Virus record (IMG/VR): IMGVR_UViG_3300025127_000023 | Coordinates: 5,533 to 69,532 of that record | Direction: 5' to 3' (one strand) | DNA length: 64,000 nt | Source of the DNA: a virus | Shown here: positions 1-64,000 of the stretch, piece by piece | Position numbering within the stretch: position 1 is the first letter of the stretch | Layout of the letters: every line of letters begins with the position of its first letter | The notes under the pieces: model-generated | What the model was told of the DNA's origin: nothing | Database searches by the model: none | What the model saw: the letters and a program-made list of their open reading frames with translations, nothing else | Program-made: the position numbers and the translations under genes

Positions 1-4
1 AGAA

Positions 5-1999
5 TTGGTTGATGAGATTACAGAAGGTATTGAAATTAAAGTAGAACCAAACTCAAACTTCATTTTAGGCGGCTCGGCTCATTTTGGAAGCGACGCGCAT
101 TTTGATAACAGAACACTCAACCACATGTTTTCACAATTGCAAAACTTGGTCAACAAAGAGCAACGCAAGCACCACGCACCATTAGAGGAATTGGCATCGG
201 AGGCGGCACAGGATAGAGATGTTGTTGATGACGACGCGCCACCACCAATGGGACAACAAGAAGAAGTCAATCCCGCTAAGGTGTTCAACAAAAAGCATCA
301 CCAATTCAACCACCCTATGCTTTACTTCCACAAAGGACGAATGATGACACACGCTGAAATGCGCGCATACGACGACCATGACGGTTTTGATTCACATGCT
401 GTGTCGCCACATAAGATAGAAAAGTGGTTTGCGCGCAATGGCGACCCAACGCAACGCATGAAGATGAAAGACTACAAAAAATTGTTGAAGAATAGAAACT
501 ATCCGTTTGACCTTTATGCACCGCACCCCGATGATGACCCGTTGCGATTCGGCAACAAACCGTCCGATATATTGGGCGCGTTCAAAAGGCAAGGACCAAC
601 TGCTCGCGAAGCACAAGATTATGACAAGAAGCGAGCCGAAAAAATGAAGAAAAGAATTGCTGAAATGGAGGCTGAAAAAATAAAGCCGTTCATGAAAGGA
701 CGCACAATACTCCGCCATAACAATGAGTTCAACCAACTCGCGGACGAGTTAGGGATGCCGGTTGACAGCGATGAAGGCTTTGCGGGTAAGTTCTTTGAAG
801 GTCATCAATTGCATTATTCACTGCAAGATTTCCACGACGAAGCGCAGAAATGGTTTATGCCAACCGCGCCAACATTAGACGACAAGGGTAAGCCGATACC
901 GGGTGCTTATCAACAACCGATTGAGGGTGAAGCCCCACTTCATACAGAATTGTCGGACGCGATTGACAACCACCTTGAGAAAGAGTTTGAGCAATTCCTA
1001 AGAATGAAAGCAATCATGCACACCATCAATATGCAAAGAGAAGGTGATGCGCCACCACAGGAGGGTGAAATAACGGTAGCGCAATTCCGTCAAATGAATC
1101 AACCGGCTGAAATGGGTGGTGATGTCAAGGGAATGATGAACTTGAACGCGAAGATTGACGCAATTATTGAAGGCGCGAAGGGTCAAGATAGCGAAACAGG
1201 CAGAACAATTTATCGCTTTGGTGATGAAGACATATCACAGCACGACTACATGGATATGCGCTACAATGATTTGCAAGATGCAGGTCAAAGCGAACCCGAT
1301 ATGTTCACAGATGGCACACACAAAGGTCTTGCTGACATGCTTGATGCATACTTTGTCAACTACGAGAAAAACCCAATGGTTGCGAAGGACAAAAAGTTGG
1401 TCAAGTTTGGCGCGAACATGTATAAAGCGCATTTTTATCCGAACATGATGTTTGAATCGCTGATGAAGCGCAACGATTTGCGCGATTATAATGATTTAGA
1501 GCGCGCGTTAAAGGAAGACCCGGAGTTTGCGCAACAATATGCAATGACGATAGGGTTGGTTGAAGCGCAACACCCGAATTGGCAAGGACTACCGATTGAT
1601 ATTAGCGAACACCTTGATGACTTGAGCCATGTTGGTGGTGTAATGAATGATAAATATGTTCCAAAATACGGCACAGCGAGTCATCCGTTGTCGCAAGCCT
1701 CTCCTGTTGTGCCACAGAAGCCGGACTTGTCGCAGGAGATACAGAACATTCGCGTAATGCAACCTCAAACCGCAACTCAACCCGGAGATTACCCGGTAGT
1801 GGGTAGTGAATACGGATTATCACCGGATGACCCAATGATGACAACCCCAATCTCGCAACAGATACCTCCAATCACAGGTCAAGAGCAAGGCGGAGAGCAG
1901 ACAACGCCGCGACCAATGCCCGCGATGATGAACCCTCAATACCCCGGTGTGGAGATACCACCACCTGCTGACGATGACACGCCACCGCCGATGAGTTGA
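5..1999 (+). CDS. Hypothetical protein, 5'-truncated at window edge; acidic, Pro/Gln-rich C-terminus; possible internal virion protein
   Basis: 664-aa ORF open to the window edge; DDDAPPPM and DDDTPPPM motifs; no family recognised. Confidence 0.75.
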   Translation: MVDEITEGIEIKVEPNSNFILGGSAHFGSDAHFDNRTLNHMFSQLQNLVNKEQRKHHAPLEELASEAAQDRDVVDDDAPPPMGQQEEVNPAKVFNKKHHQFNHPMLYFHKGRMMTHAEMRAYDDHDGFDSHAVSPHKIEKWFARNGDPTQRMKMKDYKKLLKNRNYPFDLYAPHPDDDPLRFGNKPSDILGAFKRQGPTAREAQDYDKKRAEKMKKRIAEMEAEKIKPFMKGRTILRHNNEFNQLADELGMPVDSDEGFAGKFFEGHQLHYSLQDFHDEAQKWFMPTAPTLDDKGKPIPGAYQQPIEGEAPLHTELSDAIDNHLEKEFEQFLRMKAIMHTINMQREGDAPPQEGEITVAQFRQMNQPAEMGGDVKGMMNLNAKIDAIIEGAKGQDSETGRTIYRFGDEDISQHDYMDMRYNDLQDAGQSEPDMFTDGTHKGLADMLDAYFVNYEKNPMVAKDKKLVKFGANMYKAHFYPNMMFESLMKRNDLRDYNDLERALKEDPEFAQQYAMTIGLVEAQHPNWQGLPIDISEHLDDLSHVGGVMNDKYVPKYGTASHPLSQASPVVPQKPDLSQEIQNIRVMQPQTATQPGDYPVVGSEYGLSPDDPMMTTPISQQIPPITGQEQGGEQTTPRPMPAMMNPQYPGVEIPPPADDDTPPPMS

Positions 2000-2057: not shown

Positions 2058-2092
2058 GAAACAAGAAAACAAGAATAAGGTGAATCAAATAC

Positions 2093-2100
2093 CTTTATTT
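2093..2100 (+). promoter_or_regulatory. Putative archaeal TATA box for the GTPase operon
   Basis: CTTTATTT upstream of GAGGGA SD (2124) and ATG 2135. Confidence 0.35.
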
Positions 2101-2134
2101 GATGCACACTTCACCCTACAACCGAGGGAACGCT

Positions 2135-2674
2135 ATGCAATCGGGCAGTAATCCACATAACAAAGACGAATTGAGAATACTTGGGCTGATTTCTTTCGTA
2201 TCAGTCTTGGTGGGGTGCGCTGTCGCGGTGTTTGACGCAGAATTGTGGCTTGTTGACCACAATAGCGTCCGCACGAACGCGCTGACATACACAATGGGCG
2301 CATTTACGCTACAAGGAATGTCATATTTCCTTTGGAAGATGCTTGCACAAGACTCAATGGACCAAAAAGCAAGTCTTGCAAACATGCAAAAGACCATGAC
2401 GCGACAAATGCAAAAGCAACAGATGGGATTCGCGCAAAAACAGATGGAAATTGAGATGAAAAAGCAAGAAATCCTTTTCGCTAACCAATTACAGCAACTT
2501 GAGGATGACCCGGAAGTAATTCAATACCTGCAATTGCAACAAGAGATGCAAGAGGCGGCAGAAGAGGCTATGAACGCACCAAATCATGAAGCGAAGAGCA
2601 AAAAACCAATGAAATTAGGTGCTAATCGCGAGAGAAACGCTGACGGCACTTACAAGAAGAGCAAAAAGGAGTGA
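2135..2674 (+). CDS. Membrane protein, two predicted TM helices plus Gln/Met-rich coiled coil
   Basis: Hydrophobic segments ILGLISFVSVLVGCAVAVF and ALTYTMGAFTLQGMSYFLW followed by a Q/E/K/M-rich helix; SD before ATG 2135. Confidence 0.75.
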   Translation: MQSGSNPHNKDELRILGLISFVSVLVGCAVAVFDAELWLVDHNSVRTNALTYTMGAFTLQGMSYFLWKMLAQDSMDQKASLANMQKTMTRQMQKQQMGFAQKQMEIEMKKQEILFANQLQQLEDDPEVIQYLQLQQEMQEAAEEAMNAPNHEAKSKKPMKLGANRERNADGTYKKSKKE

Positions 2675-2679
2675 AGACG

Positions 2680-2916
2680 ATGGGTTGGTTGTTCAAAACC
2701 CCAAGCGATGACGCTACCGAAGCGACATTACGCGCATTACACACTCAAAATACACTTGATACCTATTACGAGCGCGGAAAGGGTTTACTTTTTGCAATTT
2801 TGCTCGCGGCAATGACAGGATTAGGCGTATCATGGTTTGAATACGGCACAGATTTTAGTCTGTGGGAAAATACTGTTGAATGGGCGCGAAATAAAATTGT
2901 AGGTTGGGTTTCTTGA
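2680..2916 (+). CDS. Small single-TM membrane protein
   Basis: GGAGTGA SD, ATG 2680; hydrophobic LLFAILLAAMTGLGVSWF. Confidence 0.75.
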   Translation: MGWLFKTPSDDATEATLRALHTQNTLDTYYERGKGLLFAILLAAMTGLGVSWFEYGTDFSLWENTVEWARNKIVGWVS

Positions 2917-2917
2917 T

Positions 2918-3640
2918 ATGGTCGCGACAATGGCGGGTAGCGCGCTCATGGGTGCTGTCGTTTATGGTCGCGAACTGTATAACTTTCTCAAACCGCGCAG
3001 AATTGGCGTGTATGGACCAACTTTAGTCGGGAAAACCACGCTTGATGCGTTTATGAGAACACCGGGAGAGATGGAAGAGGTTGAAGAGCGAACAATGCAC
3101 CCAAAACGCATCTTGGCAAGCGGTCATGTGCTACCAAAAGCAACAAGAAAGCGTATTCGTTGGAAAGGTGAGAAAAGAGTCGTGCATTCGGCAGATATTG
3201 GAGGCCAACAGCGTTTTTGGAATCTATGGATTGATGATATGGTGGATAGGCAAGTGGAAATCGTTATTTTCATGACTGATACTCGCGCACTAAGGGGGAA
3301 CGGCTCACAAGTTATTGATGTTGTTGGAGGATTGGAGTTTCTTGTTGATGCGATGATTGAAAAGCGATGGAATTATCGTCGGTTAAAGACGCGATTGAAA
3401 GGAAAACGATATGCTCCGAAACAAGTGTGGATTATTGCAAACAAAGCGGACGAATGGTGGGATGAGAATGCAAACATTTTGTGGCAATCTAACCGTCTTC
3501 GCGAACATAAAGTGTTTGATGTTCACAGACCTGCAATGCGCAGACTACAAAAAGCGGGAATCCCTTGCCGCGTGTCAATGATGGCTACAAACATAGGGTG
3601 GAATGTTGAAAAGACACTGCTTGAAATGCTTACATGGTGA
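2918..3640 (+). CDS. Small Ras-superfamily GTPase, Arf/Sar-like
   Basis: G1 GPTLVGKT (3014-3037), G3 DIGGQ (3194-3208) followed by RFWNLW, VIFMTD strand, G4 ANKAD (3437-3451), N-terminal hydrophobic/amphipathic extension. Confidence 0.88.
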   Translation: MVATMAGSALMGAVVYGRELYNFLKPRRIGVYGPTLVGKTTLDAFMRTPGEMEEVEERTMHPKRILASGHVLPKATRKRIRWKGEKRVVHSADIGGQQRFWNLWIDDMVDRQVEIVIFMTDTRALRGNGSQVIDVVGGLEFLVDAMIEKRWNYRRLKTRLKGKRYAPKQVWIIANKADEWWDENANILWQSNRLREHKVFDVHRPAMRRLQKAGIPCRVSMMATNIGWNVEKTLLEMLTW

Positions 3641-3646
3641 TGAAAT

Positions 3647-4540
3647 ATGCTTAGAAATAAATCGCAAACCGAACTATTACGCCTTGCCGCACAGACGAAC
3701 ATGCCCTTAGCGCAAATGCAACAGCAAGCGCAATTACAAGCCGCGATGCAAGAGCATTCGGGCGTAATTGAAGTGCCTCAAGTTAATTTTTACCCTTCAC
3801 GACACCCTAACCCGGCAAAAGCGCGCCGCAAGGACATTAAGCAAGCATATCGCTTGTTGAAACCGACAAAGAGGAGCATTTTTTCACCTCGCAGATGGTT
3901 TTTTGGTGGTAAATACCGATACAACACCAACACAATGCGATGCGTTATTGATGGGGCAGATGTTGAGAATCTTATCCGTTTAGCGGGCAACATTTACGAC
4001 CAAATTATTGATGATGAAACGGGCAAGTCCTTGTGGGAGTTGTATTTTCACAATCCGGTCACAGGAGAGCCGGAAGCGTTTGTAGCGCGCGAAAATGTGA
4101 CAAGCGGGCGCAAATTACGCGGAACTTACTGTCCCGAACATTTGCATTTGTATCACATGCTGACAAAATGGGAACGCGAAGAAGAAGCCGAGCAAGAAGC
4201 GAAAGGAGGAACGCTCAAGGCGAAACTCAAGAAGGGTGTGTCGGTGGTAGCAGTTCCTATCAACACCATCAAGAAAAAGGACAACACGCCACCAACACTT
4301 GCTAAATACCAACCATTCTTTGAAATGCTCAAGCAAGACAACATTCCTGTCACTCACATGACGAATAACGCGACAGGGGTGAACGACTTGGTTGTTGTTG
4401 TCTTTGATATGCGCCAATTCCAATCGGGAGGCAACACAAGGGTGCTTTTTGACGCGTTAGCGATGCATCAAATGCAACAACAGGCCGCGCAAATGCAACC
4501 AATGCCCTTACCGACAGAATCAAATGATGGGAGCGCGTGA
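3647..4540 (+). CDS. Hypothetical protein, Gln-rich termini, possible Zn site (CVID...CPEH)
   Basis: 297-aa ORF with GGTGA SD, 6 nt after the GTPase stop. Confidence 0.8.
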   Translation: MLRNKSQTELLRLAAQTNMPLAQMQQQAQLQAAMQEHSGVIEVPQVNFYPSRHPNPAKARRKDIKQAYRLLKPTKRSIFSPRRWFFGGKYRYNTNTMRCVIDGADVENLIRLAGNIYDQIIDDETGKSLWELYFHNPVTGEPEAFVARENVTSGRKLRGTYCPEHLHLYHMLTKWEREEEAEQEAKGGTLKAKLKKGVSVVAVPINTIKKKDNTPPTLAKYQPFFEMLKQDNIPVTHMTNNATGVNDLVVVVFDMRQFQSGGNTRVLFDALAMHQMQQQAAQMQPMPLPTESNDGSA

Positions 4541-4549
4541 GGTGGTATC

Positions 4550-5128
4550 ATGGTGTGGCCTTTCAATGGTAATCAGCAACAACAGCAACCGCAAGGTGCA
4601 TTGAATCTTGGTTTGCCGAACGGACAACAACAAGTGTCAAATCAACAACAGCAGTGGGGACAGCAACAGCAATACGGTTTCCAATATCAAGCACCTCCTT
4701 CGGAGATGGAGATTTTGTCCGCGATGATAACAAGCAATCCAATGATTGACAAATGGCTCTCCGATAACAACGGAGAGAACATGAACATGCTTGTTTCGTT
4801 GTTAAGTAGTCTTGTCGCGGTATCAATGAACACGATTCTTGCAAACACGCGCTTAATTGAAGATGGGGACGGCTACAAGTTTGATTTTAGCGGCGTTCAA
4901 GGTATGCCAACGGCTGATAGCGTCATGATGAGTCAAACACAAATCCTCAACAAAGCGTCTAACAATGTTCAGCAAAAAACCATGCAGTTTCAACAAATGG
5001 TTAATGTAGCCAATCAAGGAATTATGCAAGGTATGTTGAATGAAGCGATGACTGACCCCGGTATGATGCAAAGTGTTGGTGGCGGTCTTGGTTCGTTAGT
5101 GCGCGGATTAGCAACAGGTGGTCGTTAA
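4550..5128 (+). CDS. Gln-rich hypothetical protein with C-terminal amphipathic helix
   Basis: GAGGTGG SD; poly-Q N-terminus; ends VGGGLGSLVRGLATGGR. Confidence 0.8.
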   Translation: MVWPFNGNQQQQQPQGALNLGLPNGQQQVSNQQQQWGQQQQYGFQYQAPPSEMEILSAMITSNPMIDKWLSDNNGENMNMLVSLLSSLVAVSMNTILANTRLIEDGDGYKFDFSGVQGMPTADSVMMSQTQILNKASNNVQQKTMQFQQMVNVANQGIMQGMLNEAMTDPGMMQSVGGGLGSLVRGLATGGR

Positions 5129-5129
5129 G

Positions 5130-5375
5130 ATGCAAAGTGGAGATTGGACGGGCGGTTTGTTCACCGCCATTAGCGATTTTAGCAACATGCGTAAATCAGT
5201 CATCGTTGACATGATTATGGTTCAACTTATCAGTCTAACACTTGGCTGTTTTATCATCATCGCGTTCAACAGCAACAGCATGAGTTCAACAAACTTGTCG
5301 TATTTGCTTGTTGTTCTGTTTGCGCTATTCAGTTTTACCGGAATTGTTTATCGCAGATTTGCGCATCAAGGTTGA
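5130..5375 (+). CDS. Small two-TM membrane protein
   Basis: Two hydrophobic stretches and a basic C-terminus; ATG 5130 directly after the upstream stop. Confidence 0.75.
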   Translation: MQSGDWTGGLFTAISDFSNMRKSVIVDMIMVQLISLTLGCFIIIAFNSNSMSSTNLSYLLVVLFALFSFTGIVYRRFAHQG

Positions 5376-5621
5376 CCACTTACCAATCGGGCATTCGCTT
5401 GACCTTAGCGTTGTTTTGAAGTTCATGAAACAGCCACATAATTCACAACGCGGAGCATCATAGTGTTCGCAAGTGTGGCAAACCTTCAATCTTCTATCGC
5501 GCTCTTCATTATCCACCTTTCTGTTCAGTAAAGAGTCTTTAACACCCTTGCCAAGACTGATTGCGGCAGTTTTGTTAAGCGGAATGCCCGCAATTCGGGG
5601 TGTCTTTTTCAAAGGGCGCAT
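5325..5621 (-). CDS. Cys-rich Zn-binding protein (DUF6171-like)
   Basis: RLKVCHTC...CELCGCFM...KT...CPIGKW pattern; TTGAAA box 29 nt upstream of ATG 5621. Confidence 0.75.
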   Translation of the reverse strand: MRPLKKTPRIAGIPLNKTAAISLGKGVKDSLLNRKVDNEERDRRLKVCHTCEHYDAPRCELCGCFMNFKTTLRSSECPIGKWSTLMRKSAINNSGKTE

Positions 5622-5642
5622 CAAAAACGCTATAACACAATG

Positions 5643-5652
5643 ATTTTCAAGT
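5643..5652. promoter_or_regulatory. Putative bidirectional TATA-like element between divergent leaderless genes
   Basis: TTCAAG (+, 5646) is 27 nt before GTG 5673; TTGAAA (-, 5650) is 29 nt before ATG 5621. Confidence 0.45.
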
Positions 5653-5672
5653 GTTTCGCCATGCCCTTACAT

Positions 5673-6341
5673 GTGGGCGAAAGAATTACGCGAGCATCTT
5701 GTAACTTTTGTCAAGACCCGGAACGCGATATGTTGGAAGAATTGATGCGTGATGGAATTATCACTGCGAAGCAATTGGATAAAGACAAAGGTTGGCGCGA
5801 AGGAACAGCAGACCGCCACTTCCGCAACCACATGGGTGAATACCACATGGGCGCAAACAGCGATTGCGCGTTTTGCACATCGCCTAAACGCGAGTCGCTT
5901 GAAAAAGCATACTATAATGCAACGATGACTACAAATGAAATCGCAGAAGACATCGGTATGCCGGAATCAAGCGTGTATCACCATCTCAAATATCACTTCA
6001 AGCCTATTGTGCAAAAAGGTGCGGCGGACATCATCGCTATTGAAGCAGGAAACGAAATGACATCAATCCGCAATAATCTAAATCGTTTGAATGGTGAATT
6101 GGGTTTCTTTCTTGATGATGCAGACCGTAATGACCCACAATATGTGCGCAACATTGTATCGCTTCACAAAGAAGTTCGCGACACAATCAACATGATGATG
6201 AAGATTCAAGACCGCGCCGCAGGTAATGTGACAGAAAATATCAACGCGCAAACGATTAACATTCTCAAGGTTGAGTTAGCGAAGGAATCTCCCGAAGTGT
6301 GGCGCAGATTGCGAGGTAAACTGATGGGTGATGAGGCATGA
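5673..6341 (+). CDS. Tandem CxxC-HTH DNA-binding protein with coiled coil; possible terminase small subunit
   Basis: CNFC...RHFRNH and CAFC...HHLKYH repeats with HTH-like spacing; start uncertain (GTG 5673 or ATG 5661); first gene of the block containing TerL. Confidence 0.6.
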   Translation: MGERITRASCNFCQDPERDMLEELMRDGIITAKQLDKDKGWREGTADRHFRNHMGEYHMGANSDCAFCTSPKRESLEKAYYNATMTTNEIAEDIGMPESSVYHHLKYHFKPIVQKGAADIIAIEAGNEMTSIRNNLNRLNGELGFFLDDADRNDPQYVRNIVSLHKEVRDTINMMMKIQDRAAGNVTENINAQTINILKVELAKESPEVWRRLRGKLMGDEA

Positions 6342-11509: not shown

Positions 11510-12910
11510 ATGGAGGGCTTGAGCCTTGAAACCCTTGAAGAAATTGACTATGAAGTAGCGAAGCGCGACTTCAAGTTCTTCTTTGAGGACATTCTCGGCT
11601 TTCAACTCTCATGGCATCACGAAGAATGGTTCAACAATCTTGAAGCACAACGCAGATATTGTGTTAAAGCGGCGCGTGACCACGGTAAATCAACACTGTT
11701 TCTCGGCTACCTTCTGTGGAAAGTCGCGTTCAATCCAAAATGCAAGGCTGTTCTCATCAGCCACAGTTTGCACCAATCCATTCACCACATGAGGACACTC
11801 AACGACCTCATAGATGGCATACCGTTTCTCGCGAAGATGAAGAAAGCAGATTCGTGGTCAAAGACATTCTTTGGTTTCACGAACGGTTCAAACATCAGCG
11901 CGAAGTCGGTCGGTGGTGCAATTCGTGGTATTCACCCCGACCTCATTCTTTGCGACGACATTCTGTGGGGAACGACAGATACGGAACTACAAAGAGTCGC
12001 GAGTTGGTTCTATGAAGTTCTTGTGCCAACCCTGCACCACTCGTCAAAACTGATGATTGTCGGAACACCGTTTACACCAACTGACCTTTACACCGAATTG
12101 GAACAGCGTGAGGGGTATTTGGTTGAAACTTATCCCGCAATTGATGCGAAGGGTGTCGCTCTTTGGCCGGAACGATGGGACTTGGAATCGCTTGATGCGC
12201 GTCGCAACGACATGCCCGCCATTGCATTTGCGCGTGAGTATTTGTGCGAACCAATGGACGATATGAGCAGTTTGTTCCCGTCTGTTGTTTTGCAAGCCGC
12301 GAAGGACAGCGACTTGACATTGCTCAATCGCGCAGTTGGCGACCCCGATGACCAATACTTCGTCGGTTGGGACCCTGCTATTTCATCGGACAGAAGTGCT
12401 GACTACACGGTTATGGTTGTGCTTCGTCGTCCATCAACGAATCCCGAACTGCTTGAGTTGGTTCATGTTGTTCGCAGAAAGAACATGGACTTCCGCACAC
12501 AGATTACGGAGATTCAAAAAATCAACGCGAAGTTTAATCCCGATGTGATTGAACTTGAAGCCAACAACTTTCAGCGTGTTTTTGCAACTGAACTTCGCGC
12601 GGACACAGACTTACCAATTAAGACATTTATATCCACACGCCAACGCCGAGAGTCGCTACTCATGGGTTTGGTCATGCGTTTTGAGAAAGAGCAAATGAGG
12701 CTACCGTGGGGCGATGAGTCTTCCCGAACCCTTATGAGCGAGTTAGAACGCGAACTACTCATGTTTGGTATGTCCAAGAAGGGCAAGTTGGATAGCATCG
12801 GTCGCCACGATGACTTTGCTATCGCTCTCGCATTGGCGCATTGGGGAACAACCGAGTTCCGCGAACGAATTGTGGATATTGACGAAATGATGGCGGGGTT
12901 GATTGATTGA
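11510..12910 (+). CDS. terL: Terminase large subunit
   Basis: Walker A AARDHGKST, Walker B LILCDD, GTP coupling motif, RNase H-like VGWDPA and HDDFAIALALA. Confidence 0.95.
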   Translation: MEGLSLETLEEIDYEVAKRDFKFFFEDILGFQLSWHHEEWFNNLEAQRRYCVKAARDHGKSTLFLGYLLWKVAFNPKCKAVLISHSLHQSIHHMRTLNDLIDGIPFLAKMKKADSWSKTFFGFTNGSNISAKSVGGAIRGIHPDLILCDDILWGTTDTELQRVASWFYEVLVPTLHHSSKLMIVGTPFTPTDLYTELEQREGYLVETYPAIDAKGVALWPERWDLESLDARRNDMPAIAFAREYLCEPMDDMSSLFPSVVLQAAKDSDLTLLNRAVGDPDDQYFVGWDPAISSDRSADYTVMVVLRRPSTNPELLELVHVVRRKNMDFRTQITEIQKINAKFNPDVIELEANNFQRVFATELRADTDLPIKTFISTRQRRESLLMGLVMRFEKEQMRLPWGDESSRTLMSELERELLMFGMSKKGKLDSIGRHDDFAIALALAHWGTTEFRERIVDIDEMMAGLID

Positions 12911-13966: not shown

Positions 13967-15370
13967 ATGTGGTCGGGGTCAATTCTCAAAGACGAAGCGT
14001 TTGAAAATGTCTTTGAGTCGCTATTGAAAAACTCAATTCAAGGCGGTAAAATTGGCGATGGTGAACCTACAACTTCCGCAGGTCAAGGAGAATTAGCCGG
14101 TGCGACTGACCCACCAAAACCAAACAAGATACAGGAAGAGGAAGAGGAAGACAAAATTGTTGATGCTGTCACACAACGACTGAAAAAGAACATGCCGCAA
14201 AACGGTTGGTTTCAATCAATGTTTGGTAAAGACGCGGAAGCGATGGTCAAAGAATTGCGAATGGCTCGTCGCGAAAGAAAGGATATGCGAGATGATATTG
14301 ACCTTGCAATCAACGCCATACGATTAGCAAAGCGTGAAGAGGTTGATTCAACACTCAAGTCAATTTCATGGACGGAGAATCACCTTTCATCTATACGCGG
14401 TCTTGGTGTGTCCGACAGGGACTTGCAAGCGTTGAGAAAACACGGTTCTTCGCGAGAGTTTGCTTTGAGGCGAGCATGTAGTGAATGGGAGAAGGCGAAT
14501 GATGTCATCTCAAAATTGGCTCAAGTTGAAGGTGATTTTGACGAAAACCAATTGGAAATGTGGTTGCAAGCAAATCAAATGAGAAAAGACGCGAAGAAGC
14601 AATGGAAGCAAACATTGCATTCAATTGACAATATCAAAAAGCAAGAGGCCATTTGGCTTACGCGCGCAACAAATGTCCTTACAGAAAGAGGACCGCTATC
14701 ATCAAATGAGATTTTTAATTCAATCGGTTCTCCGAAACATCTTAGCGTTCGCAAAATGGCATCGCTGTTGAAGATGCATGGTGTTGAATACGACATTGAG
14801 AAAATAGGGACGAACTACGGAATAGTCCGCGATGACTTTGTTATTGTCAAGGATATTTGGGCTTATGCGGCAGGTTTCCTTGACGCTGATGGCTACATCA
14901 CAATTACGAAGCGAGGCGAACCAAGAGCCGGTTTTGTCGCGACGGGTGGCCGTGGTAAGATTCATTGTGAGCAGTTGCACAAATCTCTCGGTTGTGGTGT
15001 GCTACAAACTGATTTGAAAATACACAAGAACAGTAAACGCACACAACATCGTCTTCAATTCTATGGCGCGGATGATTTGAGAAAACTACTGAAAGGTATT
15101 CGCCCACATTTGCAAATGAAGAAAGCACAGGCTACTGCTGTCTTGCAGTTGCTTGATTTGAGGGGGGCTAAGAGCAACCTTGTGAAAGCAAGAAGGGACG
15201 AACTTTACCGCGTAGTGAAGTGGGAAAATTGGAAAGATGTTCCCGAAGAGCGCGATAAGTTGCTCCGAGAGTGGAAAGTTGAAGAGCATGAAGTTCTTGC
15301 ATGGGGACAACGGGACAACGAAGTTATCCGACTCGTTGATGATGTTCACCGCATAGAGAGGTTGATTTGA
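13967..15370 (+). CDS. Multidomain protein with C-terminal single-motif LAGLIDADG endonuclease domain
   Basis: YAAGFLDADG at 14864-14893 with downstream LGCG and HLQMKKAQA features; long helical N-terminal region. Confidence 0.85.
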   Translation: MWSGSILKDEAFENVFESLLKNSIQGGKIGDGEPTTSAGQGELAGATDPPKPNKIQEEEEEDKIVDAVTQRLKKNMPQNGWFQSMFGKDAEAMVKELRMARRERKDMRDDIDLAINAIRLAKREEVDSTLKSISWTENHLSSIRGLGVSDRDLQALRKHGSSREFALRRACSEWEKANDVISKLAQVEGDFDENQLEMWLQANQMRKDAKKQWKQTLHSIDNIKKQEAIWLTRATNVLTERGPLSSNEIFNSIGSPKHLSVRKMASLLKMHGVEYDIEKIGTNYGIVRDDFVIVKDIWAYAAGFLDADGYITITKRGEPRAGFVATGGRGKIHCEQLHKSLGCGVLQTDLKIHKNSKRTQHRLQFYGADDLRKLLKGIRPHLQMKKAQATAVLQLLDLRGAKSNLVKARRDELYRVVKWENWKDVPEERDKLLREWKVEEHEVLAWGQRDNEVIRLVDDVHRIERLI

Positions 15371-17214
15371 TGGCAGAAGAAAAGAGAGGCGTAGTTGGCC
15401 GTTTTCTATCTTCGCTATCAAAACCATTCCGAAGACGAACCACACCCGAACCTATTATGCCTTTATGGAAGGCAGGTATTCAAGAGCCTGTCCTTGTTCA
15501 AGGTGTGAGCATTCCTGCTCTTTACGCGACAGTGCAAGAATCTGTTGTGTTGAGAACAACAATCAACACGCTTTGCCAAGAAGTGTTTAGGCGCGGTCAT
15601 TATTGGCAAAAGAAGTTTCACAAGAAATGCACCAACTGCGGAGAAGAATACAAACACGACACTGTTGAGCAATGTCGCGTTTGCGGCAACGAAGAGTTTG
15701 ATGTTCCCGATGTTGACCAAATCCTTTACCCGCGTTGGTTTTTGGAACAAAGAAACAGTATGGACCAATCATTTATGGATGTTATGCGCGAGATTGAGTG
15801 GGACTTGGATATTGTTGATGACGCATTTCTAATTCTCATCAAGGAGTATTTTATTGACCCCGATAACGGAGAGATTTCGTTCTTCCGTATTAAAGAAATC
15901 ATGCGTGGCGACCCAACCTTCATGCGAATAGTCGCTGATAAAAGAGGGTCGCGTGGTGGCAGGTATCTTATTTGTCCTGTTCACCGCGACAAAACTTATC
16001 CTCACAATGGCGACCATCACAACTGCGATGTAGCCGGATGCGGATTACCTCTCCAAGATGTTCATTACATCAACACAGCAGGTAGTGGTAAAACGCAGTA
16101 TTACATTGACGGTGAGATTATTCACACAAGCAAATACAATCCGTCAAAACTGTATGGTCGTAGCCCTGTTGCTACAATGTGGCGACAGGCACAAACACTC
16201 ACAGCGATGGACAATTACATTTACCTCGCGTATCAAAAGCGAAGAATACCTCGCGGTGTTCTCGCAATCACAACCGATAACATTCAATCAACTGCATCGT
16301 TTTGGAAGGGCGCAGAAGAAAAGATGGAGCGCGACCCTCACTACATTCCGAAAGTTGGTATTGAATCAGCATCGGGTCGTGGTAAAGTTGAGTTCGTGCG
16401 TTTTATGGATAGCCTTGATGAAATGCAATACGCGCAAGTTCGTGATGAAGTAAGAATGCGAATTGCCGCGTTCTATGGCGTATCAAGCATTTTCATGATG
16501 GACGCGGGCAAGTCCGGTGGACTCAACAATGAGGGTATGCAAATCCTTGTAACAAATCGCGCTGTTGAATACGGACAGAAAATCTATGCGAAGAATCTTT
16601 TTCCGCGATTACTTCAAGCGATGGGTGTTGAAGATTGGGAATTGACACTTTATCCGAACGAAGAAGAGGATGATGTTACAAGACTACGCCGCGATGAGCA
16701 AGAAGTCAATATCGCACAGCGTATGCAACAACTTGGTTTCCAAGCAGAACTTACAGAAGATGCAGGTCGCGACATACGATTCGTTTACTCAAAGCCCGAC
16801 CCACAGGAACAACAACAACAACCACCACAAGGCGGAGGCGGCGCACCTCCGATGGGTGGCGCACCTCCTATGCCCGGTGGCGGAATGCCTATGCCGCCAC
16901 AACAAGGGCTACCTCCGGGCGGGGGAATGATGCCACCCGGAGGCGGGGGGCTACCTCCGGGCGGCGGACCTCCGCCCGGCCAACAAGGGCAACCAATCAT
17001 GATGATGGAGAAAGGGGGCATGGTTGGTCTTGGTGAAGGCACAGGGCAACGCGATAACGGACCTGCGCCTCTTTCATCCGAAACTCATCTAAGCGGTTCT
17101 CCGAAAACAAAGAAAAATCAACGCGGCTCGGAAAAAACCATTACTGAACAAGCACTTGATGCGGTTGATGCCGCGAAAGACCCAACAAGCAAGAACAAAG
17201 AAAGCGGGTTTTAA
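15370..17214 (+). CDS. Portal protein with Zn-ribbon insertions and Pro/Gly/Gln-rich tail
   Basis: EIIHTSKYNP...LYGRSP, IPRGVL, RIAAFYGV motifs typical of HK97-family portals; position between terL and protease. Confidence 0.9.
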   Translation: MAEEKRGVVGRFLSSLSKPFRRRTTPEPIMPLWKAGIQEPVLVQGVSIPALYATVQESVVLRTTINTLCQEVFRRGHYWQKKFHKKCTNCGEEYKHDTVEQCRVCGNEEFDVPDVDQILYPRWFLEQRNSMDQSFMDVMREIEWDLDIVDDAFLILIKEYFIDPDNGEISFFRIKEIMRGDPTFMRIVADKRGSRGGRYLICPVHRDKTYPHNGDHHNCDVAGCGLPLQDVHYINTAGSGKTQYYIDGEIIHTSKYNPSKLYGRSPVATMWRQAQTLTAMDNYIYLAYQKRRIPRGVLAITTDNIQSTASFWKGAEEKMERDPHYIPKVGIESASGRGKVEFVRFMDSLDEMQYAQVRDEVRMRIAAFYGVSSIFMMDAGKSGGLNNEGMQILVTNRAVEYGQKIYAKNLFPRLLQAMGVEDWELTLYPNEEEDDVTRLRRDEQEVNIAQRMQQLGFQAELTEDAGRDIRFVYSKPDPQEQQQQPPQGGGGAPPMGGAPPMPGGGMPMPPQQGLPPGGGMMPPGGGGLPPGGGPPPGQQGQPIMMMEKGGMVGLGEGTGQRDNGPAPLSSETHLSGSPKTKKNQRGSEKTITEQALDAVDAAKDPTSKNKESGF

Positions 17215-24394: not shown

Positions 24395-25840
24395 ATGGCA
24401 ATTCTTGCACCCTCTCAATCCACCCCTCTTGTTCTCAAGGGGTTCGGTGATGATTTGGTTGTCGCAGGTTATGCTTCTGTTGAGATGGTTGACAAGCAAG
24501 GCGACCTCATTACTCGCGGTGCTTTGAAAGATGCGTTTAACGGATTCATGAAAGCAGAAGGATTCCGCAATGTGCAACTTGCACACTCTAACATTCAAGT
24601 GGGAACAGTGATTCCCTCTTACACTGACAGCAATGGCCGCGTATGGAAGTCCGAAGTGGACGATACCGGAATGTTTGTTGTCATTCAACTACGCGGCGAT
24701 ATTGAAAAGGCTCGCGAAGTTGCATCCGAAATCCGCAAGGGCAACCTGCGGTCGTTCTCAATAGGCGGTCAAGCCTTTGAGCGCGTCAACAAAAGCGACG
24801 CTACTCGCGGAGATTACCGCGAGATTCGTCGTATGGAACTCCATGAGGTTACGATTTGTGAGAAGGGTATCAATCCCGAAGCGCAGTTTCGCATTCTCAA
24901 GGAAGACACAGGTGATACAATGACTGACCCAATGAGCGAACTACAAAGCGTATTAGAAAGGCTATCCAAGAAATTGGATGACGAAGAAGACGACAAGAAA
25001 AAGAAGGACGAGGATTCCGAAAAAGGGAAAATGCCTCGTTCACTTGACCCCGATGGCGACGGCGACCCCGGACCATTCGGTGATAAACCAAAGATGAAAA
25101 CTCCACCTCGCGACGACGACGACGACGAAGACCCGGAAATGGGAATGTATGAGGACGACGACGACGACGAGGATGACGAGAACGAAGACATGATGTATGG
25201 TGATGACATGACAGCAAAAGCAGAAGATATGATAACGATGGACTATCTCAATTGGCTTGAGCAAACAGCAAAGAGTCAAGGACATGACATTGCTGACGCT
25301 CGCGCCCATTTTGATAGCGTGAACAAAGGATATGGACCGGGCGAGCCGGGCTACACCCACCGAGGACAAGGTTCTCTTGAGGGTGCAGGTGAAGGCGAAT
25401 CCTCCAAGCGACCGAAAATGGACTTTGGTGCGGCTCCAAAAGGCAACACCAATGTCATCAAAGCGACTGAATACTTGAACAGTGAAAATGTTTCACAGTC
25501 CGATATTGAAGCCGCTTACGAAGTTTACAAGGCGGCGGCTACTGAACAGCAGTTCAAAGGCTCACTTGGCAACTACTTCGCAGAAAGGCTCGCGGCAGAA
25601 CAGACTATCGCGAAGAACGAGAAGGCAAAGACCGAGTTTGATGCTCGCAAGCCTCTTCTTGAACTCCAAAAGGCTGTTGTCGCGCTTGACCAACGCATCA
25701 GCAATGTTTCAACCACAGGAGAAACTTTCGCAAAGAGTGCTGACAGCACTTCAATTCGCGTTCCCGATACTACTGAAATGGCAAACATGTCGTGGGATGA
25801 TGTTCACCGACTTGCCGACAAAGCATTGAGGGGAGAGTGA
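24395..25840 (+). CDS. Prohead protease fused to acidic scaffold domain
   Basis: GYASVEMVDKQGD, His motif LAHSN, Ser motif SFSIGG, EVTICEKGINPEA; acidic and coiled-coil C-terminal half; directly upstream of MCP. Confidence 0.92.
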   Translation: MAILAPSQSTPLVLKGFGDDLVVAGYASVEMVDKQGDLITRGALKDAFNGFMKAEGFRNVQLAHSNIQVGTVIPSYTDSNGRVWKSEVDDTGMFVVIQLRGDIEKAREVASEIRKGNLRSFSIGGQAFERVNKSDATRGDYREIRRMELHEVTICEKGINPEAQFRILKEDTGDTMTDPMSELQSVLERLSKKLDDEEDDKKKKDEDSEKGKMPRSLDPDGDGDPGPFGDKPKMKTPPRDDDDDEDPEMGMYEDDDDDEDDENEDMMYGDDMTAKAEDMITMDYLNWLEQTAKSQGHDIADARAHFDSVNKGYGPGEPGYTHRGQGSLEGAGEGESSKRPKMDFGAAPKGNTNVIKATEYLNSENVSQSDIEAAYEVYKAAATEQQFKGSLGNYFAERLAAEQTIAKNEKAKTEFDARKPLLELQKAVVALDQRISNVSTTGETFAKSADSTSIRVPDTTEMANMSWDDVHRLADKALRGE

Positions 25841-25845
25841 TTAAA

Positions 25846-27012
25846 ATGGCACGAAATTATGTAAGAACAGTTCAAGACATGGAGCGATACTACTACGGTG
25901 GTGCGGCTCAAACCGGATATACCTACTCAAGTGGCGACATTTTGAAGGCTGACAGCCCTCTTATGTCAACCACCGCAGGAACTTACCAAGCAGTTTACGG
26001 ACGCAAAGTTTGGTCGCAGTTGAACCAAGAGTTCAACGCGTTTTCAATCTTGCCGAAGAAGCCGTGGGAGCGCAGTGGATGGCGTATTCTTACCGAGCGC
26101 GCCTCCTTCACAAAGGGCGGCGGTGTTGCTGAAAACGCAACGCTACCGGAAACCTCCCGACCGGAGTTCCTGCATGTGGCCGCAAAGCCAAAGACCATCG
26201 CGCATACTTTTGACTTGTCCGAAGTGAGCATGTTCTTGTCCGACAAGGACGATGGTATGGGCGATGTCCGCCAAGTTCTCAAAGAAGAGATGGGTAAGCA
26301 CCACGCGGAGCATGTCAATCTCATGATGCTTGAAGATGTTACGACTCCTGCCGGAAACGACTTTGAATCTCTTGACAGGCTCACTTCCGACCCTGCCAAG
26401 CAGACCACCACGCAAGGTGCAGTGAACACCCTTACCGACCACGACATGTATTCAATTACTCGCGACGGTAGTGCGGCATTCCACAGTGCAGAAGTTGACA
26501 TTGGCGGCGACGCTTCAACTTCCGCGACCAACCGAAACCTATCGCTGAACCAACTTGATGGTCTATTCCAACAGATTTGGACTCGCGGTGGTAATCCAAA
26601 GGTCATGCTAACAGGATATGATACGCTTATGCGCACTCAACAACTGTTGCAATCCCAACAGCGATTCATGGACTCCAAGAGAATCACACCTACTTACTCC
26701 GGTGTGAAAGGTGTTCCGGGTATTGAAGCAGGTTTCATCGTTGCTACTTACAACGGTGTCCCAATCATCCCAACAAAGGATATGCCGGACGACAGCGCGA
26801 CCTCCGCAGGTTCACTGTCCCGTATCTATTACCTTGACACTGACTACTTGTGGTTCCAAACTGCTATACCAACGCAATACTTTGAGTCCGGTATTGAAAC
26901 CGGCGACCCATTCGCGATTAACCGTCTTGGACAAGAGGGGCTTTACCGAACAATGGGCGAACTTTGGTGTTCGTTCTTTGGTGCAAGCGGGAGTATTCGC
27001 AACCTACAATGA
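25846..27012 (+). CDS. Major capsid protein (HK97 fold)
   Basis: 388 aa after protease; GVAENATLP, GIEAGFIVATYNGVPIIP, IYYLDTDYL segments typical of archaeal tailed-virus MCPs. Confidence 0.9.
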   Translation: MARNYVRTVQDMERYYYGGAAQTGYTYSSGDILKADSPLMSTTAGTYQAVYGRKVWSQLNQEFNAFSILPKKPWERSGWRILTERASFTKGGGVAENATLPETSRPEFLHVAAKPKTIAHTFDLSEVSMFLSDKDDGMGDVRQVLKEEMGKHHAEHVNLMMLEDVTTPAGNDFESLDRLTSDPAKQTTTQGAVNTLTDHDMYSITRDGSAAFHSAEVDIGGDASTSATNRNLSLNQLDGLFQQIWTRGGNPKVMLTGYDTLMRTQQLLQSQQRFMDSKRITPTYSGVKGVPGIEAGFIVATYNGVPIIPTKDMPDDSATSAGSLSRIYYLDTDYLWFQTAIPTQYFESGIETGDPFAINRLGQEGLYRTMGELWCSFFGASGSIRNLQ

Positions 27013-28057: not shown

Positions 28058-28068
28058 GGTGATTCACC

Positions 28069-63963: not shown

Positions 63964-64000
63964 GTCTATTCCTCCTTCCAAAGCACCTCAATATCTGTGA

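What the first reader, a model, noticed from the sequence alone, without database searches (positions are those of the whole stretch)
2135..5375. Six-gene GTPase, membrane protein and Gln-rich operon: candidate membrane-remodelling or egress system
Six tightly coupled genes (gaps of 1-9 nt) lie between an upstream promoter region and a convergent gene: a 2-TM coiled-coil protein, a 1-TM protein, the GTPase, a Gln-rich Zn-site protein, a poly-Q protein ending in an amphipathic helix, and a 2-TM protein. No holin or lysin is recognisable elsewhere in the window. Inference: a GTPase-switched membrane complex for lysis or egress, membrane-anchored assembly, or superinfection exclusion, with Q-rich regions driving polymer or condensate formation.
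Basis: inference. Interest (0 to 1): 0.82.

Follow-up and report, generated by a model that had tools for sequence, protein, structure and literature searches.

The report
Membrane GTPase gene cassette of magroviruses
A tailed virus of marine archaea carries a tightly packed, strongly conserved set of six genes built around its own very unusual small GTP switch and several small membrane proteins, which may be how these abundant ocean viruses reshape or break the host membrane, although no function has been tested.

Summary
Window 2135-5375 carries six same-strand genes with junctions from -11 to +9 nt, and a convergent gene overlaps the last one. All six are under purifying selection, with dN/dS 0.03-0.18.

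They keep one order in 80 of 80 related IMG/VR loci. All six are present in 30 of 30 loci found through the terminase instead.

Gene 3 is a real Ras-superfamily GTPase. It has motifs G1-G5 and 524 Foldseek PDB matches at E<=0.001. It forms an isolated, virus-only family that is no closer to Arf than to Ras-like GTPases in depth-matched profile tests.

Genes 1, 2 and 6 have hydrophobic membrane segments. Genes 1 and 5 are the most Gln/Met-rich of 42 genes. Gene 4 has invariant Cys/His residues and no fold match.

A TATA-like element precedes gene 1 in 30 of 32 loci. A deeper virus clade keeps genes 1, 3 and 4, and probably 2.

Function is untested. My best reading is a GTP-switched membrane complex used late in infection, probably for egress (about 0.35). 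No searched paper describes it. This scan has already found the same cassette on other magrovirus genomes.

The parts
2077..2134 (+). Promoter-like leader of the cassette. It holds a TATA-like CTTTAT at 2093-2098 (-42 to -37 of the ATG), a GAGGG Shine-Dalgarno-like element at 2124-2128, and an inverted repeat AAGGT...ACCTT at 2077-2095.
   Evidence: Sequence read. A TATA-like pentamer lies at -50..-28 in 30 of 32 loci against 7% of random places (the pattern was chosen after seeing the sequences). An SD-like element is present in 27 of 32 loci against 20%.
2135..2674 (+). Gene 1, 179 aa. It has a strong membrane segment (residues 15-33) and a weaker second one (about 49-70). A long Gln/Met/Glu/Lys-rich region poor in Pro and Gly follows. 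Then come a conserved P.H..K.PL.LG motif and a basic tail.
   Evidence: dN/dS 0.03-0.18. Also found by HMM in the deep clade, 5 of 5 loci, E 1e-11 to 1e-17.
2671..2916 (+). Gene 2, 81 aa (78 aa from ATG 2680). It has a nearly invariant acidic N-terminal motif (F8, D13, D14, E17, T19, L20, H24, N27, D30, Y33, E34). One membrane segment (38-56) and a Trp-rich acidic tail follow.
   Evidence: dN/dS 0.06-0.07. A 72-aa counterpart sits in the same place in the deep clade; hhalign probability 39%, E 3e-4.
2918..3640 (+). Gene 3, 240 aa, a divergent Ras-superfamily small GTPase. It has a hydrophobic N-terminal helix (3-24) followed by KPRR. Motifs: G1 G33-T41 (GPTLVGKTT), G3 D93-G96 (DIGGQ), G4 N175-D178 (NKAD), G5 M222-T224 (ISA in distant members). 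A family-specific insert in switch I carries invariant TPGEM, RTxH and RKR.
   Evidence: dN/dS 0.03-0.06.
3647..4540 (+). Gene 4, 297 aa, soluble. Both ends are Gln/Met-rich. The core has invariant C99, C162, H165, H167 and H170 (motif TYCPEHLHLYH), a candidate metal site.
   Evidence: No PDB fold match at E<=0.001. One unnamed BFVD match. 653 relatives, none of the 120 listed with a Pfam domain or a functional name. Present in the deep clade, 5 of 5 loci, E 1e-33 to 1e-42.
4550..5128 (+). Gene 5, 192 aa, nearly uncharged (Gln 15.6%, Met 8.9%, Gly 10.9%). It has a variable poly-Gln/Gly start, a conserved PPSEMEI motif, a moderately hydrophobic helix (80-98) and a Gly-rich tail.
   Evidence: dN/dS 0.08-0.17. 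The deep-clade counterpart is recognised only by position and composition.
5118..5375 (+). Gene 6, 85 aa (81 aa from ATG 5130). It has two membrane segments (32-50, 60-78), an invariant DMxMVQ at the start of the first, and a short basic end.
   Evidence: dN/dS 0.12-0.13. Not found in the deep clade.
5325..5624 (-). Convergent neighbour, 99 aa, DUF6171 (Cys-rich). It overlaps gene 6 by 51 nt and is syntenic with the cassette.
   Evidence: Pfam PF19668 E 3e-8. phrog_13558 E 2.5e-14. Found in 76 of 80 loci.
5640..6341 (+). Next neighbour, 233 aa, with Cys pairs and a helix-turn-helix; a probable DNA-binding regulator. It is syntenic with the cassette.
   Evidence: Sub-threshold HTH Pfam hits, E 1.5e-4 to 0.06. 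Found in 80 of 80 loci.

Best explanation
This is a virus-only operon of magroviruses (tailed viruses of marine group II archaea). It runs in the same direction as the head and tail genes.

Proposed mechanism:
- A very divergent small GTPase is held at the cytoplasmic face of the host membrane by its hydrophobic N-terminal helix.
- It sits there with three small membrane proteins (genes 1, 2 and 6). By the positive-inside rule, their soluble parts all face the cytoplasm.
- It also works with two soluble partners: gene 4 (Cys/His core) and gene 5 (Gln/Met/Gly-rich).
- The GTPase acts as a nucleotide-dependent switch or timer. It decides when and where the membrane proteins and their Gln/Met-rich partners assemble.
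- Most likely this deforms or breaches the host membrane at the end of infection (egress).

Shown:
- The genes, their packing, their conservation and their purifying selection.
- The GTPase motifs and fold.
- The hydrophobic segments.
- The conserved promoter-like leader.
- The restriction of the family to these viruses.

Inferred:
- Membrane location and topology.
- Complex formation and the switch role.
- Gene 4 as a regulator, by analogy with zinc-bearing Arf GAPs, Sec23 and ArvC.
- The egress role.
For: Operon anatomy.

Synteny in 80 IMG/VR loci found through the GTPase:
- GTPase, gene 4 and gene 8: 80 of 80.
- Genes 2 and 6: 79 of 80.
- Genes 1 and 5: 78 of 80.
- Order and strand are always the same. 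The misses for genes 1 and 2 fall at truncated locus ends (L034, L044). The others are tblastn misses of the fast-diverging genes 5 and 6 (L055, L065, L077).

All six genes are present in 30 of 30 loci found through TerL that have at least 9.5 kb upstream.

dN/dS is 0.03-0.18 for all six.

GTPase:
- Invariant G1, G3 and G4; G5 reads ISA in distant members.
- AF2 model pLDDT 70, pTM 0.70.
- 524 PDB chains at Foldseek E<=0.001, headed by Rab and Ras.

The N-terminal helix 3-24 is followed by KPRR.

Hydrophobic segments occur in genes 1, 2 and 6. Elsewhere in the window, only the tape measure and one 52-aa ORF have them among likely genes.

Genes 5 and 1 rank first and second of 42 genes for Gln+Met.

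A TATA-like element precedes gene 1 in 30 of 32 loci, against 7% of random places.

The core survives in a deep clade on 105-143 kb contigs, in a different neighbourhood directly after the chaperonin.

Literature:
- The egress machinery of archaeal tailed viruses is 'still completely uncharacterized' (passages of PMC10791045).
- An archaeal small GTPase with an N-terminal helix, ArvA, drives vesicle formation together with a Zn-ribbon partner (passages of PMC10927574).
- In magroviruses the morphogenetic and replication modules are said to be transcribed in opposite directions (passage of PMC12999244). The cassette shares the direction of the morphogenetic genes.
Against: No experiment exists and no interaction evidence was obtained.

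- No holin, lysin or any lysis family matches genes 1-6 in Pfam or PHROGs.
- The N-terminal helix of the GTPase is only moderately hydrophobic. It passes no 19-residue window at Kyte-Doolittle 1.4, and its hydrophobic moment is 0.21-0.37. Neither a transmembrane nor an in-plane anchor is established.
- The switch II Gln is not conserved; it is Q, E, D or H across clades. Hydrolysis may be unusual or slow.
- Switch I of the model is low confidence, pLDDT under 50 for residues 40-74.
- Gene 6 is missing from the deep clade, and gene 5 is recognisable there only by composition. The six-gene set is therefore not universal.
- Late timing is inferred from gene direction only.
- The RNA-library contigs that touch the cassette are short. 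The tool warns that they do not show transcription.
Confidence: 0.35

Rival explanations
1. This is a membrane-remodelling or membrane-anchoring device that is not lytic. The cassette builds a membrane-attached platform or vesicles for replication or assembly. Alternatively it takes over the host's vesicle formation in the manner of ArvA, with the Gln/Met-rich proteins as a matrix.
For: The anatomy is the same as above. ArvA shows that archaeal small GTPases can drive vesiculation. The low-charge Gln/Met/Gly-rich gene 5 and the Gln/Met-rich ends of gene 4 look more like matrix or scaffold than like pore formers.
Against: ArvB (PF09846) is absent from the viral record. No DUF2072 or DUF2073 Pfam hit exists in genes 1-8. 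Tailed viruses have no membrane of their own. There is no evidence of compartments in infected marine group II cells.
Confidence: 0.2
2. This is superinfection exclusion or another inter-virus conflict function. The membrane complex blocks DNA entry by later-arriving viruses, with the GTPase as sensor or regulator.
For: Small membrane proteins commonly serve this role in phages (general knowledge, not tested here). The cassette has its own promoter-like element.
Against: Exclusion genes are usually variable accessory genes. This cassette was in every relative examined and is under strong purifying selection. It also survives in a deep clade. It points the same way as the structural genes.
Confidence: 0.1
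3. This is host takeover through a signalling GTPase. The viral GTPase mimics or competes with a host small GTPase that controls division, polarity or envelope growth, for example to stop division and enlarge the cell.
For: The protein is a true Ras-superfamily switch. Archaea use small GTPases for membrane processes.
Against: There is no detectable cellular counterpart. The whole-library HMM search lists 85 representatives, most of them shorter than the 240-residue profile. Every full-length distant one that I read keeps this family's N-terminal helix and G motifs. Only 3 of 185,579 species genomes match, all on short contigs of discordant taxa. A mimic would be expected to resemble its model. 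The obligate linkage to membrane proteins is not explained.
Confidence: 0.1
4. This is a targeting or insertion aid for viral membrane proteins, in the manner of SR-beta. An N-terminally anchored Arf-like GTPase and Met-rich partners would bind hydrophobic peptides.
For: The architecture, an N-terminal hydrophobic helix followed directly by a GTPase, is the same as in SR-beta (recalled). Pfam SRPRB gives sub-threshold hits in 2 of 10 family members. Genes 1 and 5 are Met-rich.
Against: The SRPRB hits are far below threshold (best E 0.089). No SRP-like RNA or SR-alpha-like partner was seen. The only obvious clients would be the cassette's own small proteins.
Confidence: 0.05

Closest known systems
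Arf family GTPases (Arf, Arl, Sar1), including the Asgard ArfR proteins (GerdArfR1, PDB 8OUN)
   Same: Small Ras-superfamily GTPase with a helix directly upstream of G1. Switch II reads DIGGQQRFWNLW against DLGGQLHFRNLW of 8OUN in the printed alignment. 8OUN is the best GTPase in the PDB profile search and is GerdArfR1-GDP (passages of bioRxiv 10.1101/2024.02.28.582541). Single Asgard Arf-like proteins match the viral profile at hhalign probability 90-93% in 3 of 4 cases.
   Different: The 8OUN match is not significant (E 0.29). Pfam Arf scores 12.2 bits against a cut-off of 22.3. No Arf-family chain is among the 46 Foldseek rows printed, which run to rank 50 with gaps; they are Rab, Ras, Ral, Rac and other Ras-like GTPases. 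In depth-matched profile tests, Arf-like triples score 54.4 (A1) and 62.6 (A7). Ras-like triples have medians of 40.8 and 60.7 and ranges that include the Arf values. The viral protein is 240 aa, with a long switch I insert and a longer G3-G4 region. The catalytic Gln is not conserved.
ArvABC (OapABC) vesiculation system of Euryarchaeota
   Same: An archaeal-world small GTPase with an N-terminal membrane-binding helix. It is encoded in an operon with small partners, one of which carries a metal-binding Cys motif and is proposed as a GAP. It acts on the cytoplasmic membrane (passages of PMC10927574).
   Different: No OapB/ArvB (PF09846) is found in the viral record. No DUF2072 or DUF2073 hit exists in genes 1-8. 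The viral partners are membrane proteins and Gln/Met-rich proteins, which ArvABC lacks. Direct comparison with an ArvA sequence could not be made because none was obtainable with the tools.
Phage holin-based lysis cassettes
   Same: Several small proteins with one or two membrane segments and short charged ends, clustered in the late-direction gene block upstream of the terminase. This placement resembles lysis cassettes of many tailed phages (recalled).
   Different: No match to any holin, spanin or endolysin family. No lysin is present. A GTPase and Gln/Met-rich proteins are not parts of known holin systems. The holins reported for other Poseidoniales viruses belong to Adrikavirales and sit beside an amidase (passages of PMC11706807).
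SR-beta (signal recognition particle receptor beta subunit)
   Same: An N-terminal hydrophobic anchor directly followed by an Arf-like GTPase domain of similar total length (recalled). Sub-threshold Pfam SRPRB hits in 2 of 10 members.
   Different: The hits are far below the gathering score. There is no SR-alpha-like partner. The context is viral.

Membership tests
Ras superfamily of small GTPases (TRAFAC class) | G1 GxxxxGK[ST], G3 DxxG, G4 NKxD and G5 SA-type motifs, in order | tested here: met
   G33-T41, D93-G96 and N175-D178 are invariant in 22 sequences. G5 is MAT in the window's clade and ISA in distant members.
Ras superfamily of small GTPases (TRAFAC class) | Small GTPase fold | tested here: met
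   AF2 model pLDDT 70.3, pTM 0.70. 524 PDB chains at Foldseek E<=0.001; the best is Rab27B at E 9e-7, with TM 0.40-0.55.
Arf family (Arf/Arl/Sar1/ArfR) | Score over the curated Pfam Arf threshold | tested here: not met
   12.2 bits against a cut-off of 22.3. Sub-threshold Arf hits in 5 of 10 members, equal to MMR_HSR1 at 5 of 10.
Arf family (Arf/Arl/Sar1/ArfR) | Closer to Arf than to other small GTPase families | tested here: inconclusive
   Depth-matched hhalign gives Arf-like 54.4 against a Ras-like median of 40.8 (range 25.0-60.6) with A1. With A7 it gives 62.6 against 60.7 (range 47.5-76.7). References came from one Asgard genome only.
Arf family (Arf/Arl/Sar1/ArfR) | N-terminal amphipathic helix that binds membrane in the GTP state. 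This is the hallmark according to bioRxiv 10.1101/2024.02.28.582541. | tested here: inconclusive
   A helix at 3-24 is predicted, with pLDDT 47-71. Hydrophobic moment is 0.21-0.37 and mean hydrophobicity 0.25-0.42. The helix is 22 residues long and rich in Gly, Ala and Ser, so an anchor and an in-plane helix cannot be told apart.
Arf family (Arf/Arl/Sar1/ArfR) | Interswitch toggle between the GDP and GTP forms | not testable with these tools
   This needs structures of both nucleotide states. Residues 40-74, the region between G1 and strand 2 where switch I should lie, have pLDDT under 50 in the model.
ArvABC (OapABC) | ArvB (OapB, PF09846) next to the GTPase | tested here: not met
   No match in the viral record. 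The control genomes Haloferax volcanii and Methanosarcina acetivorans do match.
ArvABC (OapABC) | ArvC Zn-ribbon (DUF2072) nearby | tested here: not met
   No such Pfam hit in genes 1-8 at E<=1. Gene 4 has invariant Cys/His residues but no detectable relation.
ArvABC (OapABC) | GTPase orthologous to ArvA | not tested
Holin-endolysin lysis cassette | Match to a known holin, spanin or endolysin family | tested here: not met
   No such Pfam or PHROG match for genes 1-6. There is also none among the other window proteins scanned.
Holin-endolysin lysis cassette | Small proteins with 1-3 membrane segments and charged ends | tested here: met
   Gene 2 has 1 segment and gene 6 has 2, by hydropathy only. 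This feature is not specific to holins.

The most novel reading that the evidence does not exclude
The cassette is the long-sought lysis or egress machine of a major group of archaeal tailed viruses. A virus-encoded, membrane-tethered small GTPase works as a clock. It triggers holin-like small membrane proteins and Gln/Met-rich partners to rupture the host envelope. This would be the first egress system known for archaeal head-tailed viruses. It would also be the first small-GTPase membrane switch encoded by a virus of prokaryotes, evolved apart from Arf, Sar1 and ArvA.
Probability: 0.25. Interest if true: 0.9.

Novelty: new variant of a known kind. Interest (0 to 1): 0.68.

Why it matters
Magroviruses are reported as the third most abundant marine virus group, after SAR11 phages and cyanophages (passage of PMC5434244). 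A 2024 review states that the egress machinery of archaeal tailed viruses is completely uncharacterised (PMC10791045).

This cassette is virus-specific, was found in every related locus examined and is strongly conserved. It concentrates most of the window's small membrane proteins around a GTP switch. That gives a concrete, clonable candidate for the unknown membrane step.

It also adds an isolated branch to the Ras superfamily. The branch joins a GTPase to a hydrophobic N-terminal helix outside eukaryotes and Asgard archaea. This bears on how often such membrane switches arose.

Tried and rejected
Complex prediction of the GTPase with gene 4 (residues 38-262) gave 'no answer', score 0.01 against a mark of 0.32. 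It counts neither for nor against binding.

Structure of gene 4: the model has pLDDT 65.6. It has no PDB match at E<=0.001 and only one unnamed BFVD match, so no function could be drawn from it.

ESM Atlas searches for genes 4 and 5 gave no usable hit and no model.

Sequence and profile searches of the PDB with the GTPase found nothing significant. The best hits were RecA P-loop E 0.14 and 8OUN E 0.29.

tblastn of the GTPase against 50,697 phage records found no match.

Metatranscriptomes:
- One search found only small shares, at most 0.05 of the sampled words, in seawater RNA libraries.
- Laying four runs gave short Logan contigs on 2296-2645 (X2), 3245-3480 (X1) and 5037-5214 (X3, across the gene 5/6 junction), plus pieces outside the cassette.
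- The tool states that such contigs do not show transcription, a single transcript or expression level.
- Parts without cover mean nothing. I draw no timing or co-transcription from this.

Distant GTPase members P0197 and P0157 gave no IMG/VR loci, so their gene context is unknown.

Coiled coil in gene 1: the heptad test was negative.

A shared operator was rejected as not significant. AAGGTGAATCAA with up to 2 mismatches gives 12 matches against 8.1 expected. The inverted repeat AAGGT N3-12 ACCTT occurs twice against 0.39 expected, and 7 of 100 shuffles reach that.

Rejected readings:
- MglA-like: the viral protein has DxxG, while MglA (as I recall) has TxxG.
- Ribosome-assembly GTPase: there are only sub-threshold MMR_HSR1 hits and no extra domain.
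- Scaffold or virion protein: it lies outside the protease-capsid block, but this was not tested by proteomics.

Literature for 'not in print':
- A search for 'magrovirus' found 22 papers.
- 'GTPase' has 0 occurrences in the main texts of PMC5434244, PMC11706807, PMC10160649, PMC8651126, PMC12999244 and PMC5332604.
- 'Poseidoniales' + 'virus' + 'GTPase' found 3 unrelated papers.
- 'archaeal virus' / 'small GTPase' / 'Caudoviricetes' found nothing on viral GTPases.
- One search was a badly framed search and gave nothing useful.
- Supplementary annotation tables of these papers were closed and may list a GTPase annotation. Three JGI records already name family members 'GTPase SAR1 family protein'.

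Full report
WHAT IS THERE

The window is bases 5533-69532 of a 69.5-kb linear virus record that is estimated to be 66% complete. It is a head-tailed virus of the magrovirus type. The hallmark genes are:
- large terminase, 11510-12910
- portal, 15367-17214
- prohead protease, 24395-25840
- major capsid protein, 25837-27012
- tail tube, 30821-32755
- tape measure, 34223-36004
- a thermosome-like chaperonin, 62461-63981 on the minus strand

Chaperonins close to those of marine group II archaea are what first tied such genomes to that host (passage of PMC5332604).

| Gene | Coordinates | Length |
|---|---|---|
| 1 | 2135-2674 | 179 aa |
| 2 | 2671-2916 | 81 aa |
| 3 | 2918-3640 | 240 aa |
| 4 | 3647-4540 | 297 aa |
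| 5 | 4550-5128 | 192 aa |
| 6 | 5118-5375 | 85 aa |

Junctions are -4 or +5, +1, +6, +9 and -11 or +1 nt, depending on whether GTG or the next ATG starts genes 2 and 6. Gene 7 (5325-5624, minus strand, DUF6171) overlaps the end of gene 6 by 51 nt.

ARE THEY REAL AND DO THEY BELONG TOGETHER

Pairwise dN/dS against relatives is 0.03-0.18 for all six genes, with dS near or beyond saturation. So even the 81- and 85-codon ORFs encode proteins.

A scan of IMG/VR with the GTPase confirmed 135 of 149 candidate stretches, and the best 80 were kept. In those 80 loci, with GTPase identity from 94% down to 54%, tblastn found:
- the GTPase, gene 4 and gene 8 in 80 of 80
- genes 2 and 6 in 79
- genes 1 and 5 in 78
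- gene 7 in 76

Order and strand were always the same. The misses for genes 1 and 2 lie at truncated locus ends (L034, L044). The rest are tblastn misses of fast-diverging small or low-complexity genes (L055 and L065 for gene 5; L077 for gene 6).

To avoid finding the cassette through its own gene, I also fetched 80 loci through TerL. All 30 loci with at least 9.5 kb upstream of TerL hold all six genes by HMM, with the GTPase 8.0-8.9 kb upstream of TerL. Loci with shorter flanks hold no more than their upstream flank can reach, with no gene out of order. These loci are close relatives (TerL at least 78% identical), and many are the same contigs as before.

A DEEPER CLADE

The whole-library HMM search (1.84 billion representatives) found only 85 proteins at E<=0.001. 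Most are shorter than the 240-residue profile.

The full-length distant members that I read keep the N-terminal hydrophobic helix and the G motifs.

Five IMG/VR loci of the P0126 type were examined: L082-L085 and L114. Three of them lie on contigs of 105-143 kb, one on a 42-kb contig and one on a 7-kb contig. All five encode:
- a gene 1 relative (E 1e-11 to 1e-17)
- the GTPase
- a gene 4 relative (E 1e-33 to 1e-42)

In L084, read in detail:
- A 72-aa protein in the place of gene 2 has the same N-terminal IFK..DD..E motif and one membrane segment (hhalign probability 39%).
- A 278-aa Gln/Gly/Met-rich protein sits in the place of gene 5, with no profile support (probability 4%).
- There is no gene 6.
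- The cassette directly follows the chaperonin gene.

So the core is genes 1-(2)-3-4, and it has moved as a block.

THE GTPASE

Invariant residues in 22 sequences give:
- G1: G33xxxxGKTT41
- G3: D93xxG96
- G4: N175KAD178
- A G5 that reads MAT here and ISA(R/L/K) in distant members

The AlphaFold2 model has pLDDT 70.3 and pTM 0.70. Residues 40-74 are low confidence. It matches 524 PDB chains at Foldseek E<=0.001. The 46 rows printed, which run to rank 50, are Rab, Ras, Ral, Rac and other Ras-like GTPases, with TM 0.40-0.55, and none is an Arf-family chain.

Sequence methods barely see it:
- Pfam Arf scores 12.2 bits against a cut-off of 22.3.
- The PDB profile search gives no significant match. 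Its best GTPase is 8OUN at E 0.29, which is the Asgard Arf-related GerdArfR1.
- Across ten family members, the sub-threshold Pfam hits are spread over MMR_HSR1 (5), Arf (5), GTP_EFTU (4), Roc (3) and SRPRB (2).

Arf-like traits are the helix before G1 and the switch II string DIGGQQRFWNLW (8OUN has DLGGQLHFRNLW).

To test for a specific affinity, I took Arf-like and Ras-like GTPases from one Asgard genome. I compared them by hhalign with the viral profiles at equal alignment depth:

| Viral profile | Arf-like triple | Ras-like triples, median (range) |
|---|---|---|
| A1 | 54.4 | 40.8 (25.0-60.6) |
| A7 (more diverse) | 62.6 | 60.7 (47.5-76.7) |

The two reference groups match each other far better (probability 99.4%, E 1e-21) than either matches the viral family.

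The protein is therefore an isolated, deep branch of the Ras superfamily. It has some Arf-like features but is not a demonstrable Arf family member.

The switch II Gln is replaced by Glu, Asp or His in other clades.

Only 3 of 185,579 species genomes hold a relative. Each is on an 8-16 kb contig of a MAG labelled Asgard, Maricaulis or Parvibaculum. I read these as viral contigs binned by mistake.

THE PARTNERS

Hydropathy gives:
- one strong and one weaker segment in gene 1
- one segment in gene 2
- two segments in gene 6
- a moderately hydrophobic helix in gene 5

Among the 48 non-overlapping ORFs of the window, other membrane-like segments occur only in the tape measure, in a 52-aa ORF at 62171-62329, and in two minus-strand ORFs that I take to be spurious.

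Flanking basic residues put the soluble parts of genes 1, 2 and 6 in the cytoplasm (my reading). These parts include the nearly invariant acidic N-terminus of gene 2.

Genes 5 and 1 rank first and second of 42 genes for Gln+Met, at 24.5% and 19.0% against 7.2% overall. Gene 4 has 12 Gln/Met in one 30-residue stretch.

Gene 4 has invariant C99, C162, H165, H167 and H170. It has no fold match. It has 653 relatives, and none of the 120 listed has a domain or a functional name.

None of genes 1, 2, 4, 5 or 6 matches Pfam or PHROGs at a meaningful level.

REGULATION

The 135-nt spacer before gene 1 is AT-rich. It carries CTTTAT 37-42 nt and GAGGG 7-11 nt before the ATG.

A TATA-like pentamer lies at -50..-28 (mode -42) in 30 of 32 diverse loci, against 7% of random places. 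In one of the two exceptions, L053, I think my start call is wrong. The pattern was defined after looking at the sequences, so the contrast is somewhat inflated.

There is no room for promoters between the six genes.

The cassette points the same way as the head and tail genes. In magroviruses the morphogenetic and replication modules are said to be transcribed in opposite directions. Late expression is therefore plausible but not shown.

HOW IT MOST LIKELY WORKS

Everything soluble appears to face the cytoplasm. The only enzyme is a GTP switch with a membrane-seeking helix. The unit is obligate for these viruses.

I therefore read it as a GTP-controlled complex on the inner face of the host membrane.

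Its most likely task is the late membrane step, egress. No component of that step is known in archaeal tailed viruses.

The closest working analogies are:
- Arf/Sar1 with zinc-bearing GAPs
- the euryarchaeal ArvABC vesiculation operon
- phage holin cassettes

It is a member of none of these (see the membership table). I put about 0.35 on the egress reading. The rest is spread over non-lytic remodelling, exclusion, host takeover and protein targeting.

NOVELTY

None of the magrovirus papers I could search mentions a GTPase in its main text. Supplements were closed. JGI's automatic name 'GTPase SAR1 family protein' exists for three members.

This scan has met the same cassette before on other magrovirus genomes, with similar verdicts. 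I re-tested the main points here and added:
- the selection analysis
- the TerL-anchored count
- the promoter-like element
- the whole-library and GTDB searches
- the depth-matched Arf/Ras test
- the ArvB check

Noticed in passing
L266 2-7531 (= window 2-1999 and 5.5 kb upstream in the record): The gene just upstream of the cassette is a giant ORF of at least 2,509 aa, open at the record's end. It is rich in charged residues, and the 664-residue part inside the window has no Pfam or PHROG match. The window thus holds parts of three giant genes (at least 2,509, 2,022 and 5,657 aa). It is poorly conserved: only 4 of 80 loci give a tblastn hit, at 20-41% identity.
   Followed up: partly
window 2680-2697 (start of gene 2): The conserved start of gene 2, MG(W/R)(L/I)FK followed by T, fits the hydrophobic-hydrophobic-Lys pattern. 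Earlier notes on this genome (e1-6212230, e1-6212229) proposed that pattern as protease or targeting sites in head proteins. It may be coincidence.
   Followed up: no
window 5325-5375: Genes 6 and 7 converge and overlap by 51 nt. Similar overlaps (63 and 72 nt) occur in the distant loci L049 and L064. So the two transcription units must end inside each other.
   Followed up: partly
window 2077-2095 and 28056-28070: The inverted repeat AAGGT...ACCTT overlaps the TATA-like element of the cassette. It recurs once, before ORF 28069-28233. That is 2 matches against 0.39 expected, and 7 of 100 shuffles reach 2. It is a possible operator but is not significant.
   Followed up: partly
window 62171-62329: A 52-aa ORF with one strongly hydrophobic segment lies next to the chaperonin gene and has no PHROG match. 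It is another small membrane protein candidate outside the cassette.
   Followed up: partly
window 3206-3208 (GTPase residue Q97): The switch II glutamine is Gln only in the window's clade. Other clades have Glu or Asp, and the deep clade has His. This suggests an unusual or partner-dependent hydrolysis mechanism.
   Followed up: partly
L161, L162, L163: The only GTDB species genomes with the viral GTPase carry it on 8-16 kb contigs of MAGs labelled Promethearchaeati, Maricaulis and Parvibaculum. These are probably magrovirus contigs binned by mistake.
   Followed up: no
window 5640-5675: Gene 8 (Cys pairs plus HTH) probably starts later than ATG 5640. Relatives begin at the residues aligned with its GERITRASC, where the window has a GTG. 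That would leave about 48 nt between the divergent genes 7 and 8.
   Followed up: no
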